This document shows positions 5,811-58,373 of a stretch of 64,000 nucleotides of DNA, piece by piece. The stretch lies in NCBI RefSeq assembly GCF_022846255.1, contig NZ_AP025682.1; one strand, given 5' to 3'. The stretch is from Escherichia coli (GTDB taxonomy: Bacteria; Pseudomonadota; Gammaproteobacteria; Enterobacterales; Enterobacteriaceae). The notes under the pieces are model-generated. The model worked only from the letters and a program-made list of their open reading frames with translations, had not been told where the DNA came from and searched no databases. Each line of letters opens with the position of its first letter. The stretch's first letter is position 1. The translations under genes were made by a program, and so were the position numbers.

Positions 5811-5901
5811 GCCTCAAATCAGTGCCGGATGGCGATGCTGTCCGGCCTGCTTATTAAGATTATCCACTTTTTGTTTTTTCACTTTACCTCCCCTTCCCGC
5901 T

Positions 5902-9307: not shown

Positions 9308-9322
9308 GTTTGGATTTAAGCC

Positions 9323-9355
9323 GGATGCGGCATCACATGCCGCATCCCTTTTCGC
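9323..9355 (+). terminator. rho-independent terminator after roxA
   Basis: 11-bp perfect stem GGATGCGGCAT-cac-ATGCCGCATCC followed by cttttcgc. Confidence 0.65.
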
Positions 9356-14700: not shown

Positions 14701-15162
14701 ATGAGCCAGGACAGTAGAGTTTTCTTTCGTATATTCTTCGGTATCGGTCTGGTACTGATCCTCATTTCTGTTGTTATCTTTTATAACCAGTTCACCTATA
14801 GCAAAGACGCGATTCATACTGAAGGCGTCATTGTTGATACCGTCTGGCACTCCAGTCATTCTCATCGCACGGGTAAAAATGGTTCGTGGTATCCCGTCGT
14901 TGCCTTTCGTCCGACGCCAGATTACACGCTAATTTTCAATTCAAGTATTGGCAGCGATTTTTATGAAGACAGTGAAGGCGATAAAGTTAATGTTTATTAT
15001 TCTCCAGGACATCCTGAAAAGGCTGAGATAAATAACCCGTGGGTTAATTTTTTTAAATGGGGGTTTATCGGCATTATGGGCGTTATTTTTATCTCCGTCG
15101 GTTTATTAATCAGTATGCCCTACTCTAAAAAGACACGCAGGAAACGGAAGTCCCGCCCATGA
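14701..15162 (+). CDS. ymfA: inner membrane protein YmfA (DUF3592)
   Basis: ORF 14659-15162; start set after the potD terminator at MSQDSRVFF..., 153 aa. Confidence 0.8.
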
Positions 15163-15944
15163 AAAAAATCATAATATTGCTCAGTTTACTGATACTCCTG
15201 CCTCTGACGGTAACCAGTAATCCATTGATTCCAATAATGAAGACTCTTTTTACGGATGTTACCGGTACTGTACCGGATGCCGAAGAGATCGCGCGTAAAG
15301 CCGAACTTTTTCGTCAACAAACCGGGATTGCGCCGTTTATCGTGGTTGTACCTGGCGTTAATGAAGCAAGCTTCAGGCAAAATGGCAAAGCGATGCTGGC
15401 GCATGCGGCATCTTCAATGAGTAATGTAAAAGGAAGTGTTCTGTTACTTTTTACTACCCGCGAGCCACGGTTAATTATGATAACCAACGGCCAGGTTGAA
15501 AGCAGCATGGACGATAAACATCTCGGCCTTCTGGTAGAAAATCACACTCTGGCTTATTTACATGCAGATCTCTGGTATCAGGGAATCAATAATGCATTGG
15601 CTGTTTTACAAGCACAGATATTAAAACAACCGACGCCGCCACTGACATATTATCCGCATCCCGGACAACAGCAGGAGAATGATCTTCCCGGCAGTACCAC
15701 GACATTAGGCCTTTTTGCCTGGGCAGTTGCATTCATCGTCTTTGCTGCATTTTTTAACTACACAACGCGCCTTTATTATGCGTTAAAATTTGCAGTGGCT
15801 ATGGCTGTTGCCAATATGGGCTATCAGGCTTTATGTTTGTATATCGATAACAGCTTTGCGATTACCAGAATATCGCCGCTCTGGGCAGGGCTGATTGGTG
15901 TCTGTACGTTTATTGCCGCGTTACTATGGACGAGTAAACGGTAA
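15159..15944 (+). CDS. ycfZ: inner membrane protein YcfZ (TPM-domain)
   Basis: 261 aa, signal peptide plus C-terminal membrane segments; 4-nt overlap with ymfA. Confidence 0.85.
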
Positions 15945-15972
15945 AAGAGGCAGTAAAGTTCGCATGTATTAT

Positions 15973-16068
15973 GCCGGATGCGGCGCGAACGCCTTATCCG
16001 GCCCACAAAACCCGCAAATTCAATTAATTGCGCCCCTTCACAGGCCTGACAAGCGTAGCGCATCAGGC
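15973..16068. repeat. REP/BIME palindromic units
   Basis: gccggatgcggcgcgaacgccttatccggcc and gcctgacaagcgtagcgcatcaggc, the typical enterobacterial REP form. Confidence 0.8.
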
Positions 16069-16081
16069 AATTTTTCCCGCT

Positions 16082-16903
16082 TTATAATCCCTTCAGCAAC
16101 TTTTCAACAAACTCTGGCACCACCTGGCTTGCCGGACCGTAATATTTCTCGGCAAATTCATTACCAACCTGACTCGGTTCAAGATTCAGTTCCACGGTGT
16201 GCGCGCCATGCAGTTTCGCTTCGTGAACAAACCCAGCCGCCGGATAAACATGCCCCGAAGTACCAATGGCAATGAAAATATCGGCCATCGACAACGCCAT
16301 ATAAATTTCATCCATGCCGAGTGGCATTTCGCCAAACCACACTACGTGCGGGCGCAAGGGTGCCGGGAACTGGCAACAATGGCATTTATCTTCTGGCGTA
16401 ACGTCTCCGGTCCAGTCGAGGACCTGGCCACTTTGCGAACAACGTACTTTCAGCAGTTCCCCATGCATATGAATGACATTGGTATTACCTGCGCGTTCAT
16501 GCAGATTGTCGATATTCTGCGTCACCAGCAAAAATCGATCGCCGAGGGCGTCTTGCAGTTTAGCCAGCGCAAGATGCGCGGCGTTAGGCTGAATTTCTGG
16601 CTGCTGCAGCTGTCGGCGACGGGCGTTATAAAACGCTTGCACCAGTTCAGGATCGCGATCAAAACCTTCCGGCGTTGCCACATCTTCAACCCGATGTTCT
16701 TCCCACAGGCCATCTGCGGCGCGAAAGGTACGAATACCTGATTCCGCAGAAATCCCTGCCCCTGTCAGTACGAGTACTCTTGGTTTTTCCATTGCTTCCG
16801 GCACCACTTTATCTCTGAAAAAAATACGCTGACGCAAACGCTCGCGCAGGCGGCGTTTATTTTTACGAAAACGACTTAACCGATGACCCCGACGCGACAG
16901 CAT
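16082..16903 (-). CDS. cobB: NAD-dependent protein deacylase (sirtuin)
   Basis: 273 aa ORF with Arg-rich N-terminal extension, CobB-like. Confidence 0.92.
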
Positions 16904-28824: not shown

Positions 28825-28951
28825 GGGAATACCTCCTTCTTTGCAGTTATGCCAATCATGCAAGCGAAGGAGAAAAGCAGCTATCAGACAGAAGATGAAA
28901 AGCGCGGGAATGGCTGGAAATACTTAGGGATTCGGAGGAGTCTGAAGGAAT

Positions 28952-29038
28952 GCCTGATGCGACACTTAACGCGTCTTATCAGGCCTACCGCTCGTACCAT
29001 TTGTCCAGGGCGGATAAGGCGTTTATGCCCCATCCGCC
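28952..29038. repeat. REP/BIME palindromic units
   Basis: gcctgatgcgacacttaacgcgtcttatcaggcctac and ggcggataaggcgtttatgccccatccgcc. Confidence 0.8.
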
Positions 29039-29050
29039 AGTACAAGCCGA

Positions 29051-30505: not shown

Positions 30506-30627
30506 GTTTTGTTGCTGAAAAGATAGGCGACTTTACCGGGTGAGATCAAAAAACAGAGTTTATTGTTTATTATTTGAGCGAATTTGTGAGAGTGATATAG
30601 AGTGAGGGGTGTATGGAGTGCGTTCGG

Positions 30628-30747
30628 TAGGCCTGATAAGAGGCGCATCAGGCATTGATGCTCGACTGTCGGATGCGGCGTGGACGCCTTATCCGACTTA
30701 CAGAATTCGGAGCGCATCAGGTACCGGCAAGGTTACCTGATGCGACG
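30628..30747. repeat. REP/BIME cluster (three palindromic units)
   Basis: gtaggcctgataagaggcgcatcaggc; gtcggatgcggcgtggacgccttatccgac; ggagcgcatcaggtaccggcaaggttacctgatgcgacg. Confidence 0.8.
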
Positions 30748-30754
30748 AGGGCAT

Positions 30755-31297
30755 TTACCCGAGGGTTTTGAACGCCTTAATGCGCTGCAAATGCGGGGAG
30801 ATATTCTTGAATTTGTGCGTCTGCTCTTCGTCCCAGACAATCTCGTAATAATGATGCAGCTCTTCAGATGTCCGCTGGCTGTTAAGCGCTTCATCATTAC
30901 GCGACAAAATCACCAAACAACGATCGCGATTCTTTTCGCGGAAGTTGGTCACACACTTAGTGGCAATATCGGCATACTCTTCCGGGCGATCAATCTTGCC
31001 TTCCATGTTCTCATAAGGGAACAAATTAGGGTTGAAGATCACCTGGCGGATATCGCAAAGAAAACCAATCCGTTCCGCCCAGTATCCGCCCAGACCAACG
31101 CCGCAAATCAGCGGACGCTCGTCGACGTTCAGTTGCAACATTTTGTCCACTTCTTTGAGCAGATGCTGCATATCATGTTTCGGATGCCGCGTACTGTAGC
31201 TTATCAAGCGTACATCCGGGTCAATAAACTGCAATTGTAAGACTTTCTCGTGGTTACCCGGACTGTTAGAGTCAAAACCGTGTAAATAGATAATCAT
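30755..31297 (-). CDS. ycfP: UPF0227 alpha/beta-hydrolase-fold protein YcfP
   Basis: ORF 30755-31354; start set at [18 protein letters not shown]..., 180 aa. Confidence 0.88.
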
Positions 31298-56889: not shown

Positions 56890-58314
56890 TAATGCCAGTC
56901 AGTTAAGCAACTGACTGGCTCTTTTTCGGGGCTGTGGGGTATTTCCAGGGCCTCTCCTTTACCACTCTCGGGAAGGCCCTTTCCCTTCTTGTCGGTAATT
57001 TCACAAGTTGTCCCATACTTGCAAGATCGCGCATCAGCTCCGGTATACGTCCCGGTGAAGCGCCCTGCAATGTCATCAGCATTCTCATCACCATTCCACA
57101 TGATTCTGAGAAACTCAGTTGATTCGGCCAGTAACCTTTCAGATGTTCCGCCATTTTAATCATCTGATATCTCACCAGATTATAAGCCAGTAAGACACCC
57201 CACAGCTCTTGCTCCACAAGCTCCGGTTTTTTACTTCTCAGCGTCAGCCTGCTCAGTTGCATCGTCTGTTTTATCTCCCTGTATCCCAGTTCGATTTCCC
57301 AGCGATGACTGTACAGATCCGCCATTTCTCCTCCGGGGAAGCGCATGGCGTCCGTCATCGACGTCAGCAGATGGCAGACTTTTCCTTTGCGCGTCACGGT
57401 CAGCAGGCGGGCTGTCACTTCATTTCCCAGTCCCGGCCACTTTTTTCGTGCCTGCGGGCTGGTTTTCAGCTTCACCAGATGATCGCCTTTACCCAGTTTT
57501 CTGATCTCTTCATATTGCGCTCCCTTTCTGAGAGGTATCATCCAGTGGCGGTGTTCTCCCGCCAGGCTCCAGGCATTTAACAGTCCCAGTGAGTAATAAC
57601 CTTTATCCATTAACGTCAGAGTGTTATCGCCGGTTTGTTCTATAAGTTGCTCAGCAAGCTCATTTTCGCTGTTCTTCATCGTGCCGAAGGCTGCAGCCGT
57701 CAGCAGATGGCTGGTCAGTTCCATCTGGCAGACCATTTTGACCTGCGGGTAGAGCGCCGGGTTCCCGGCATGTGTCTGGCGGGGGAAGGCTGCATCGTTC
57801 TCTGGTGTATCCGGTGTGCGCCAGAACACACCATCGATGGCCAGCAGGGTCAGGCCGCACCAGTGCGGATGCGGCGTGGCGTTATGCCAGAGCTGCGCTG
57901 TTTTCGTGAACACGCGGCGGACAGCCTCACTTCCCAGGCGCTGGCGGGCCTGAATAACGGCACTGGGGGCAACGAAGGGGCGATTGCCCGGCAGCATGAT
58001 GTCCAGGCGATTCACAATCTGGTGAAGAGGTTCTTTACGCTCAAGCGCCATGCCAACAATACACCAGACCATCATTTCGAGGGGAAGACGGCGCTTGCGT
58101 AGCGTTACAGTACCTGATTCGGCAAGGCAACGAGAGATGAGTTCGGGGTCGAGGTAATCCCCCAGAGAAGTCAGTGGGTTACGCAGAGAATCGTAACGGG
58201 ATACCAGATCAAGAGCCTGTCCAATGTGCATAAAAAAATCCGGAAACAAGTGAGCGTTTCCGGATTCTTACACAGCCACTGGATCGGTCAACTGATCCTT
58301 AACTGATCGGCATT
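56890..58314 (-). mobile_element. IS4 insertion sequence (complete)
   Basis: 1425 bp; 18-bp imperfect terminal inverted repeats TAATGCCAGTCAGTTAAG / TAATGCCGATCAGTTAAG (16/18); full transposase ORF; flanked by an 11-bp direct repeat. Confidence 0.9.
56903..58231 (-). CDS. insG: IS4 transposase (DDE)
   Basis: ORF 56903-58249; start set at [16 protein letters not shown]..., 442 aa, matching the IS4 InsG sequence as I recall it. Confidence 0.92.
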
Positions 58315-58325
58315 ACAGCCTAGCT
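58315..58325. repeat. IS4 target-site duplication, right copy (CAGCCTAGCTG)
   Basis: Identical to 56879-56889. Confidence 0.8.
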
Positions 58326-58341
58326 GGGGGTTTTCTGTGCA

Positions 58342-58373
58342 CAAAAATGCCCGCCCCGGCGATCCCGGAGCGG
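58342..58373 (-). terminator. rho-independent terminator of flgL
   Basis: gcccgctccgggatcgccggggcgggc hairpin followed by attttt on the minus strand, 45 bp past the flgL stop. Confidence 0.7.

What the first reader, a model, noticed from the sequence alone, without database searches (positions are those of the whole stretch)
15973..16068. REP/BIME palindromic units at several intergenic sites
Seen in sequence: canonical REP-type palindromes (GCCGGATGCGGCG...CGCCTTATCCGGCC form) at 15973-16068, 28952-29038, 30628-30747 and 50436-50509, and a REP-like hairpin after purB (5822-5850). These are ordinary for E. coli but are potential IS200/IS605-family and RAYT targets.
Basis: partly seen in the sequence, partly recalled or inferred. 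Interest (0 to 1): 0.12.

Follow-up and report, generated by a model that had tools for sequence, protein, structure and literature searches.

The report
Ordinary E. coli REP/BIME repeats
The flagged sequences are the well-known short hairpin repeats (REP/BIME elements) found between E. coli genes; they are ordinary, though other strains show two known mobile elements, IS1397 and IS621, inserted into two of these same sites.

Summary

- **15972-16069:** a full BIME-1 (Y REP, conserved L linker, inverted Z1 REP). An independent profile matches it at E=5e-24, and it sits at the same position in E. albertii.
- **28951-29039:** a Z2/Y pair.
- **30627-30701:** a Z1/Y pair.
- **50478-50512:** a single REP.

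Each is single-copy per genome and only looks REP-like. The purB hairpin fits a terminator pattern.

True REPs hit at least 40 places per genome. Their stems show compensatory changes, with 97% of cells paired.

Across 5,426 genomes these loci do vary, and they are insertion targets, but for IS1397 (IS3 family, in the Z2 REP loop) and IS621 (IS110 family, at ATCAGGCCTAC). IS200/IS605 elements were not seen there, and the window's own IS200C copy is not in a REP. Only two of the seven REPs keep the GTAG motif that the RAYT enzyme needs.

This is already known biology and of low interest.

The parts
15972..16006 (+). Y-type REP, left half of a BIME-1 between ycfZ and cobB. The foot tetranucleotide is CCAC instead of CTAC.
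   Evidence: (94% to the Y consensus, E=4e-9).
16007..16041 (.). L linker of the BIME-1, with the conserved core GCAAATTCAATTAATTGC. The IHF-like 13-mer ATTCAATTAATTG lies at 16018-16030.
   Evidence: the linker is conserved in at least 29 paralogues. PMC3333891 states that the L linker frequently carries an IHF site. The IHF consensus match alone is not significant.
16042..16069 (-). Z1-type REP, right half of the BIME-1. It starts 12-13 nt after the cobB stop codon. Its foot reads CACAG where the E. albertii orthologue has GTAG.
   Evidence: (96%, E=4e-7).
28951..28988 (+). Z2-type REP between ycfJ and ndh with a canonical CTAC foot. It contains the exact IS621 target ATCAGGCCTAC (28978-28988). 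Its loop TTAA (28966-28969) is where IS1397 sits in strain 135.
29007..29039 (-). Y-type REP, tail to tail with the Z2 REP across a linker of about 16-18 nt (BIME-2-like composition). It starts 11-12 nt after the ndh stop codon.
   Evidence: E=1e-5; z=-5.96.
30627..30654 (-). Short Z1-like REP between ndh and ycfP with a canonical CTAC foot. It contains the exact IS621 target (30627-30637), and IS621 sits here in strain RMDEC465.
30667..30701 (+). Y-type REP with a compensated foot (GTCGGA/TCCGAC) and tail TTAC.
   Evidence: (E=2e-7).
30710..30747 (.). Single-copy perfect hairpin whose arms copy the Z-REP head (CGCATCAGGTA / TACCTGATGCG), about 9 nt after the ycfP stop codon. It is not a dispersed REP.
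   Evidence: median 1 place per genome. One arm takes part in a 59-nt deletion in strain JNEC-KY177.
50436..50466 (.). Single-copy perfect hairpin whose arms copy the Y-REP head (GCCGGATGCG / CGCATCCGGC), 8 nt after the yceF stop codon. It is not a dispersed REP.
   Evidence: median 1 place per genome.
50478..50512 (+). REP with a Y-type core and a Z-type foot (GCCTGAT...ATCAGGC). The tail is CAAC.
   Evidence: E=1.4e-6; at least 40 places per genome.
5823..5848 (+). Hairpin 13 nt after the purB stop codon. It is single-copy and terminator-like, not a REP.
   Evidence: (no profile match).
9320..9347 (.). Hairpin between roxA and pepT that begins with a 12-nt REP-head match and is followed by CTTTTCGCTT.

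Best explanation
The four intergenic sites hold seven members of the enterobacterial REP family, arranged as BIMEs.
- **Site 1 (15972-16069):** a complete BIME-1, also known as a RIP/RIB element. It consists of a Y REP, the conserved L linker and an inverted Z1 REP.
- **Site 2 (28951-29039):** a Z2/Y tail-to-tail pair, which is the BIME-2 composition.
- **Site 3 (30627-30701):** an atypical Z1/Y head-to-head pair, with a REP-derived fragment hairpin beside it.
- **Site 4 (50478-50512):** a lone hybrid REP next to a unique hairpin.

**How they most likely work.** These roles are inferred from what is published on the family and were not measured here.
1. *In RNA.* When transcribed at the 3' ends of the neighbouring genes, the imperfect hairpins act as 3' stem-loops that slow exonucleases or attenuate read-through. 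Where the hairpin starts within 15 nt of a stop codon (cobB, ndh, ycfP, yceF), it may stall the terminating ribosome and lower expression of that gene.
2. *In DNA.* The BIME-1 L linker is the usual IHF-binding site of this class, and Y REPs of BIME-2-type pairs are preferred gyrase sites.
3. *As landing pads.* The hairpin loop is used by IS1397. The tail ATCAGGCCTAC is the sequence read by the IS621 bridge RNA. REPs with GTAG and the stem bulge are the substrate of the RAYT enzyme TnpA_REP.

**Shown here:** family membership, dispersal, pairing with compensatory changes, conservation at the same position in another species, and IS insertions and deletions at these loci in other strains.
For: **Membership.**
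- Consensus matches with E from 4e-9 to 2e-5.
- An independent BIME-1 profile matches site 1 over its full length at E=4.9e-24, matches the other REPs at 2.7e-7 to 5.5e-4, and matches nothing else in the window.

**Dispersal.**
- The 98-nt BIME-1 and the 43-nt site-4 REP each hit at least 40 places per genome.
- A paralogous BIME-1 lies between pfkA and sbp.
- The linker pattern clusters in Escherichia and Pseudocitrobacter genomes.

**Structure.**
- 97.4% of cells are paired, 3 pairs have changes on both sides, and slid controls pair at 29-44%.
- Fold z-scores are -4.9 to -6.2 at sites 2-4 and -3.0/-1.6 at site 1.

**Age.** Orthologues of site 1 exist in E. albertii (L029) and in another Escherichia species representative (L115).

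**Variation.**
- At site 2, a long and a 17-bp-shorter allele are found in about 3,827 and 1,597 genomes.
- A 59-nt deletion between repeated GCGCATCAGG removes the Y REP at site 3.
- A ymfA-ycfZ deletion of about 1.3 kb ends inside the L linker in about 600 genomes.

**IS targeting.**
- IS1397 sits in the Z2 loop with TTAA on both sides.
- IS621 sits at GGT-AG^AG-GCCTGAT, which places the CT core inside ATCAGGCCTAC (PMC11208160).

**Function.** Literature only: PMC3333891, PMC6379681, PMC12306157, PMC1525189.
Against: - No expression, IHF, gyrase or RNA 3'-end data were available, so every functional role is inferred from the family.
- Five of the seven REPs lack the canonical GTAG/CTAC. The window's BIME-1 has lost it on both arms, so RAYT recognition may be poor.
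- The IHF consensus match in the linker has one mismatch. Such matches are common in the window (67 observed against 52 expected).
- I did not compare the site-2 linker with the published S motif, and site 2 is a single copy rather than a tandem array, so the BIME-2 label rests on REP composition only.
- The allele counts are read from identity bands and coverage counts together with a few inspected genomes. I did not inspect every genome.
Confidence: 0.93

Rival explanations
1. The hairpins are ordinary gene-specific intrinsic terminators that resemble REPs only by chance.
For: - The purB (5824-5846) and roxA (9323-9347) hairpins pass the terminator-like scan.
- The purB hairpin is single-copy per genome. 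The two other look-alike hairpins tested, at 30710-47 and 50436-66, are single-copy too.
- All of them lie just after stop codons.
Against: - The seven REPs are dispersed, with at least 40 places per genome.
- They match an independent family profile.
- They lack a T-run after the stem.

This explanation therefore holds only for the look-alike hairpins, not for the four REP loci.
Confidence: 0.05
2. The REP pairs are currently mobile non-autonomous elements (REPIN-like doublets) that a RAYT copies around the genome. These copies would then be recent arrivals.
For: - The pairs are inverted REP doublets of the kind RAYTs bind and cleave in vitro (PMC3333891).
- Alleles differ between strains at sites 1-3.
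Against: - Each locus is occupied in essentially all of 5,425 genomes.
- Site 1 is orthologous in E. albertii, so these copies are old and fixed.
- Most have lost the GTAG needed for RAYT binding.
- The differences I saw between strains are deletions, point changes and IS insertions, not gains of REPs.
- No RAYT gene lies in the window.
Confidence: 0.04
3. They are remnants or target sites of IS200/IS605-family elements.
For: [quoted passage not shown]
- An intact IS200C copy is present in the same window.
Against: - That IS200C lies between rne and flgL, at a site that holds no REP in strain AR_0017.
- No IS200/IS605 insertion was seen in the low-coverage genomes I inspected at these loci. 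The insertions found were IS1397, IS621 and an IS3-family element.
- The survey in PMC1525189 found 1 of 25 IS200 copies near a REP.
Confidence: 0.02

Closest known systems
BIME-1 (RIP/RIB element): Y REP, L linker, Z1 REP
   Same: Site 1 has the same three parts in the same tail-to-tail order. It aligns over its full length with 29 paralogues (E=4.9e-24), carries the conserved linker core GCAAATTCAATnnATTGC, occurs as a single unit, and lies between convergent genes.
   Different: Both foot tetranucleotides are mutated (CCAC on Y; CACAG where the E. albertii orthologue has GTAG on Z1), and the Z1 stem has an A-to-G change. IHF binding was not tested.
BIME-2 (Y and Z2 REPs with a short linker, gyrase-binding)
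   Same: Site 2 pairs a Z2 REP with an inverted Y REP, tail to tail, across a short linker of about 16-18 nt.
   Different: It is a single pair rather than a tandem array. I did not compare the linker with the published S motif. In about 30% of genomes, K-12 included, the Z2 half is largely gone.
IS621 target site (bridge-RNA-guided IS110-family recombinase)
   Same: The natural target ATCAGGCCTAC with its CT core (PMC11208160) occurs exactly at 28978-28988 and 30627-30637. A natural IS621 insertion sits at the second site in strain RMDEC465, with the core on both junctions.
   Different: The other five REPs differ from the 11-mer: GTCAGGCCTGT, ATCCGGCCCAC, ATCAGGCCAAC and so on. They are therefore expected to be poor targets. 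The window itself carries no IS621.
IS1397 target (loop of REPs in BIMEs)
   Same: In strain 135, IS1397 sits in the centre of the Z2 REP loop at site 2, flanked by TTAA. This matches the behaviour described for the element (cited in PMC3333891 and PMC1525189).
   Different: The window itself carries no IS1397.
RAYT / TnpA_REP substrates (REPtron system)
   Same: All seven REPs keep the stem mismatch the enzyme requires. The pairs have the REP plus inverted-REP layout that is cleaved in vitro.
   Different: Only two of the seven keep the required GTAG. No tnpA_REP gene is in the window. The two perfect hairpins lack the mismatch, so by the published rules they should not be bound.

Membership tests
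REP (enterobacterial repetitive extragenic palindrome) | Imperfect palindrome of 30-40 nt (28-38 nt here) able to form a stem-loop. | tested here: met
   97.4% of cells are paired across the seven REPs, against 29-44% in slid controls.
REP (enterobacterial repetitive extragenic palindrome) | Sequence match to the Y, Z1 or Z2 consensus. | tested here: met
   E from 4e-9 to 2e-5 against the consensus sequences. An independent profile gives E from 4.9e-24 to 5.5e-4.
REP (enterobacterial repetitive extragenic palindrome) | High copy number, dispersed around the genome. | tested here: met
   At least 40 places per genome, with the cap reached in more than 5,390 records. The look-alike hairpins give a median of 1.
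REP (enterobacterial repetitive extragenic palindrome) | Conserved GTAG/CTAC tetranucleotide at the foot. | tested here: inconclusive
   Canonical in 2 of 7 (28985-28988 and 30627-30630). The other five have 1-2 substitutions: CCAC, CTGT, CTGG, TTAC, CAAC.
REP (enterobacterial repetitive extragenic palindrome) | Extragenic position, usually just 3' of a gene. | tested here: met
   All four loci lie between annotated genes and 3' of at least one of them.
BIME-1 / RIP / RIB | Y and Z1 REPs tail to tail around the conserved long L linker, as a single unit. | tested here: met
   Full-length alignment to 29 paralogues and to the paralogue between pfkA and sbp.
BIME-1 / RIP / RIB | IHF binds the L linker. 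| not testable with these tools
   There is only a one-mismatch match to WATCAANNNNTTR at 16018-16030, which is not significant by itself. The literature says the L linker frequently carries an IHF site (PMC3333891).
BIME-2 | Y and Z2 REPs separated by the short S linker. | tested here: inconclusive
   Site 2 has Z2 and Y tail to tail across about 16-18 nt. I did not compare the linker with the S motif.
BIME-2 | Occurs as tandem multiple copies. | tested here: not met
   There is one pair only at site 2.
IS621 natural target | The 11-mer ATCAGGCCTAC (or ATCGGGCCTAC) with a CT core. | tested here: met
   Exact matches at 28978-28988 (+) and 30627-30637 (-). A natural insertion sits at the second site in another strain.
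RAYT (TnpA_REP) substrate | A GTAG 5' of the foot together with a mismatch in the stem. | tested here: inconclusive
   The mismatch is present in all seven, and GTAG in two. The rule comes from PMC3333891. Binding itself cannot be tested here.
IS200/IS605 target or remnant | IS200/IS605 copies found inserted in or beside these REPs. | tested here: not met
   The window's IS200C is at a non-REP site. The insertions I found at these loci belong to the IS3 and IS110 families.

The most novel reading that the evidence does not exclude
Four hairpins are single-copy and perfectly paired, yet their arms resemble the REP head: 50436-66, 30710-47, 9320-47 and, less clearly, 5823-48. They could be collapsed BIMEs, in which the two outer heads of an inverted REP pair were joined by deletion of everything between them. 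Such derivatives would have lost the bulge, the GTAG and the IS621 target. They would then escape RAYT and IS attack while keeping a hairpin close to the stop codon (8-15 nt after yceF, ycfP, roxA/pepT and purB) that terminates transcription or stalls the ribosome. Their presence in essentially all 5,425 genomes would then reflect selection for that role.
Probability: 0.15. Interest if true: 0.3.

Novelty: already known. Interest (0 to 1): 0.08.

Why it matters
It matters little as a discovery. REPs and BIMEs have been catalogued in E. coli for about 40 years, and this window carries the expected number of them.

The practical value is in annotation. The analysis separates seven true REPs from four look-alike hairpins and identifies one locus as a BIME-1 likely to bind IHF. 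It marks two exact natural targets of the IS621 bridge recombinase, which is relevant to off-target maps when that system is used in E. coli. It also documents that these loci are real hot spots of insertion and deletion across 5,426 genomes.

Tried and rejected
- **Fuzzy-regex scan:** it timed out, so I replaced it with blastn-short and nhmmer.
- **K-12 RefSeq annotation:** it lists no REP features for this region, so it could not serve as a reference.
- **Rfam:** it gave only rne5, SraB and STnc490, with no match at any of the REP sites.
- **IHF consensus scan:** it is non-specific (67 matches against 52 expected), so I do not count it as evidence.
- **Genome-contig scan for the L-linker core:** It still supplied enough paralogues to build the profile.
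- **Papers not held:** Liang et al. 2015 and 2016, Choi et al. 2003 and Clement et al. 1999. Their claims are cited through papers that are held.
- **Searches that found nothing:** no paper links ycfZ and IHF, and the IS621 paper's supplements do not mention these loci.
- **Rejected readings:** chance resemblance, recent REPIN mobility, and IS200/IS605 remnants. The reasons are given under the rival explanations.

Full report
**Context.** The window is an E. coli chromosome segment running icd, purB, phoPQ, potABCD, ymfA, ycfZ, cobB, lolCDE, mfd, ndh, fhuE, ptsG, the fab cluster, rne and the flg genes. This is the K-12 region from about 1.196 Mb down to 1.13 Mb, in reverse orientation. All sites in the finding are intergenic and lie 3' of at least one gene.

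- Searching with the published Y, Z1 and Z2 REP consensus sequences gave seven significant matches:
  - 15972-16006 (+), Y
  - 16042-16069 (-), Z1
  - 28951-28988 (+), Z2
  - 29007-29039 (-), Y
  - 30627-30654 (-), short Z1
  - 30667-30701 (+), Y
  - 50479-50512 (+), Y core with a Z-type foot
- The REP head pattern occurs 28 times against 8.5 expected from shuffles.
- As an independent test I scanned public genomes for the BIME-1 linker core. I extracted 29 paralogous elements from E. albertii, another Escherichia species representative and a Pseudocitrobacter genome, leaving out the orthologues of site 1. I then built a profile and searched the window.
  - The profile matches site 1 over its full length (E=4.9e-24).
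  - It matches the REPs at the other three sites (E from 2.7e-7 to 5.5e-4).
  - It matches nothing else in 64 kb.

**What is not a REP.** I ran four searches with matching settings (43-54 nt queries, sensitive mode, E up to 1).
- The true REP at 50474-50516 hits at least 40 places per genome, with the cap reached in 5,423 records.
- The hairpin beside it (50430-50472) has a median of one place per genome.
- So does the third hairpin of site 3 (30703-30756).
- So does the purB hairpin (5814-5856).

These three are perfect or near-perfect palindromes whose arms copy only the REP head, so they are look-alikes. The profile does not match either of them.

**Anatomy.**
- *Site 1* is a complete BIME-1: Y REP, linker ...ACAAAACCCGCAAATTCAATTAATTGCG..., inverted Z1 REP. 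It aligns column for column with the paralogue between pfkA and sbp and with the family consensus.
- *Site 2* is a Z2 REP and an inverted Y REP, tail to tail.
- *Site 3* is an inverted short Z1 REP and a Y REP, head to head, followed by the fragment hairpin.
- *Site 4* is the unique hairpin, a 12-nt spacer and one REP.
- *Pairing.* Across the seven REPs, 97.4% of cells in the proposed stem are paired. Three positions show changes on both sides: GCCGGA/TCCGGC, GTCGGA/TCCGAC, GGCGGA/TCCGCC and GCCTGA/TCAGGC. Slid controls pair at 29-44%.
- *Folding.* Three of the four loci fold far better than shuffles (z -4.9 to -6.2). Site 1 is weaker (z -3.0 and -1.6).
- *Conserved motifs.* All seven keep the internal GC-versus-TT mismatch. 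Only two keep the canonical CTAC/GTAG foot (the Z2 at site 2 and the Z1 at site 3).

**Age and variation.**
- Site 1 has an orthologue with the same flanks and the same linker variant in E. albertii (L029) and in another Escherichia representative (L115). The element therefore predates the species.
- The E. albertii copy still has GTAG on Z1, K-12 has GCAG and this window has CACAG. This copy is decaying.
- Each locus is present in about 5,425 of 5,426 complete E. coli genomes.
- The variants I found:
  - *Site 2:* a long allele like this window (identity 95% or more, about 3,827 genomes) and a K-12-like allele 17 bp shorter, in which the Z2 REP is half gone (about 1,597 genomes).
  - *Site 3:* length variants, plus a 59-nt deletion between two GCGCATCAGG repeats that removes the Y REP in strain JNEC-KY177.
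  - *Site 1:* in about 600 genomes a deletion of about 1.3 kb runs from the start of ymfA into the L linker. It leaves potD followed by a lone Z1 REP and cobB. I inspected two such genomes by sequence; the count comes from coverage figures.

- *IS1397 (IS3 family)* is inserted exactly in the loop of the site-2 Z2 REP in strain 135: GCGACGCTTAA | IS | TTAACGCGTC.
- *IS621 (IS110 family, the bridge-RNA recombinase)* is inserted in the tail of the site-3 Z REP in strain RMDEC465: GGT-AG | IS | AG-GCCTGAT. On the other strand this is ATCAGGC-CT | IS | CT-ACC.
  - The published natural target of IS621 is ATCAGGCCTAC with a CT core, and 144 of 173 experimental insertions fell in REPs (PMC11208160).
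  - That 11-mer occurs exactly twice in the window, at 28978-28988 and 30627-30637.
- *An IS3-family element* with ends TGAACCGCCCCGGG sits in the site-4 spacer in strain Z142-1, with a GGC duplication.
- *IS200/IS605.* I saw no such insertion at these loci.
  - The window's own intact IS200C (Y1_Tnp, E=1.7e-37) lies in an island between rne and flgL.
  - In strain AR_0017 that spacer holds no REP.
  - A published survey lists the IS3, IS110, IS4, IS256 and IS5 families as REP-targeting, and found 1 of 25 IS200 copies near a REP in Salmonella LT2 (PMC1525189).

**RAYT.** The E. coli enzyme TnpA_REP binds single-stranded REPs. It requires both the GTAG and the stem mismatch, and it cleaves the inverted partner (PMC3333891). 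By that rule two of the seven REPs here are good substrates and the perfect look-alike hairpins are not. No RAYT gene is in the window.

**How they most likely work (inferred from the family).**
- *In transcripts*, the hairpins sit at the 3' ends of ycfZ/cobB, ndh, ycfP and yceF/rluC. They probably stabilise or attenuate those transcripts.
- *Distance to the stop codon.* A hairpin begins within 15 nt of the stop codon of cobB (12-13 nt), ndh (11-12), ycfP (about 9) and yceF (8). Within that distance REPs have been reported to lower translation of the upstream gene (Liang et al. 2015, as cited in PMC12306157).
- *In DNA*, the BIME-1 linker is the usual IHF site of this class (PMC3333891), and Y REPs of BIME-2 elements are preferred gyrase cleavage sites (PMC6379681).
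- None of these roles was measured here.

**Verdict.** This is ordinary, already-known biology. The finding is a correct but slightly over-inclusive annotation, and its interpretation names the wrong IS family.

Noticed in passing
window 55259-58347: An island of about 3 kb lies between the rne stop codon (55258) and flgL. It is absent from AR_0017 and K-12. It holds a TacA-like antitoxin (55391-55684), a GNAT toxin-like gene (55681-56175) and an IS200C copy. None of the 5,426 complete genomes holds 80% or more of this stretch in one place.
   Followed up: partly
window 56873-58332: IS4 is inserted into the palindromic left-end hairpin of the IS200C copy (AACCCCCAGCCTAGCTG | IS4 | CAGCCTAGCTGGGGGTT), with an apparent 11-bp duplication CAGCCTAGCTG. 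The same IS200C-IS4 unit occurs at 99.4-99.8% identity in other strains. Rfam STnc490 matches 56772-56895.
   Followed up: partly
window 14735-16028: About 600 of 5,426 genomes lack ymfA-ycfZ. The deletion runs from near the start of ymfA into the BIME-1 L linker, apparently at an ATT microhomology. E. albertii has the full arrangement, so the deletion is the derived state.
   Followed up: partly
window 15500-16500: The ycfZ allele in this window is rare. Only 11 genomes match the 1-kb ycfZ-cobB stretch at 99% or more, and most, K-12 included, are at 90-95%. This suggests divergent ycfZ alleles or recombination.
   Followed up: no
window 9320-9347: A hairpin between the convergent genes roxA and pepT starts with a 12-nt exact match to the Y-REP head and is followed by CTTTTCGCTT. 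It is identical in K-12 and AR_0017. It looks like a terminator, possibly derived from a REP.
   Followed up: partly
L121 3326-3510 and L130 12045-12145 (Pseudocitrobacter MAG): There are tandem arrays at 82-bp spacing of a Y REP plus the left half of the L linker, without the Z1 REP. This is an amplified BIME-1 variant, unlike the single-unit form seen in Escherichia.
   Followed up: no
L080 (contig binned as a Bacteroides sp. MAG): The contig carries a canonical enterobacterial BIME-1. This points to a mis-binned enterobacterial contig.
   Followed up: no
window 49683-49851 and 51712-52048: Rfam finds the SraB sRNA (minus strand) and the RNase E 5' UTR element, as expected for this region.
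   Followed up: no
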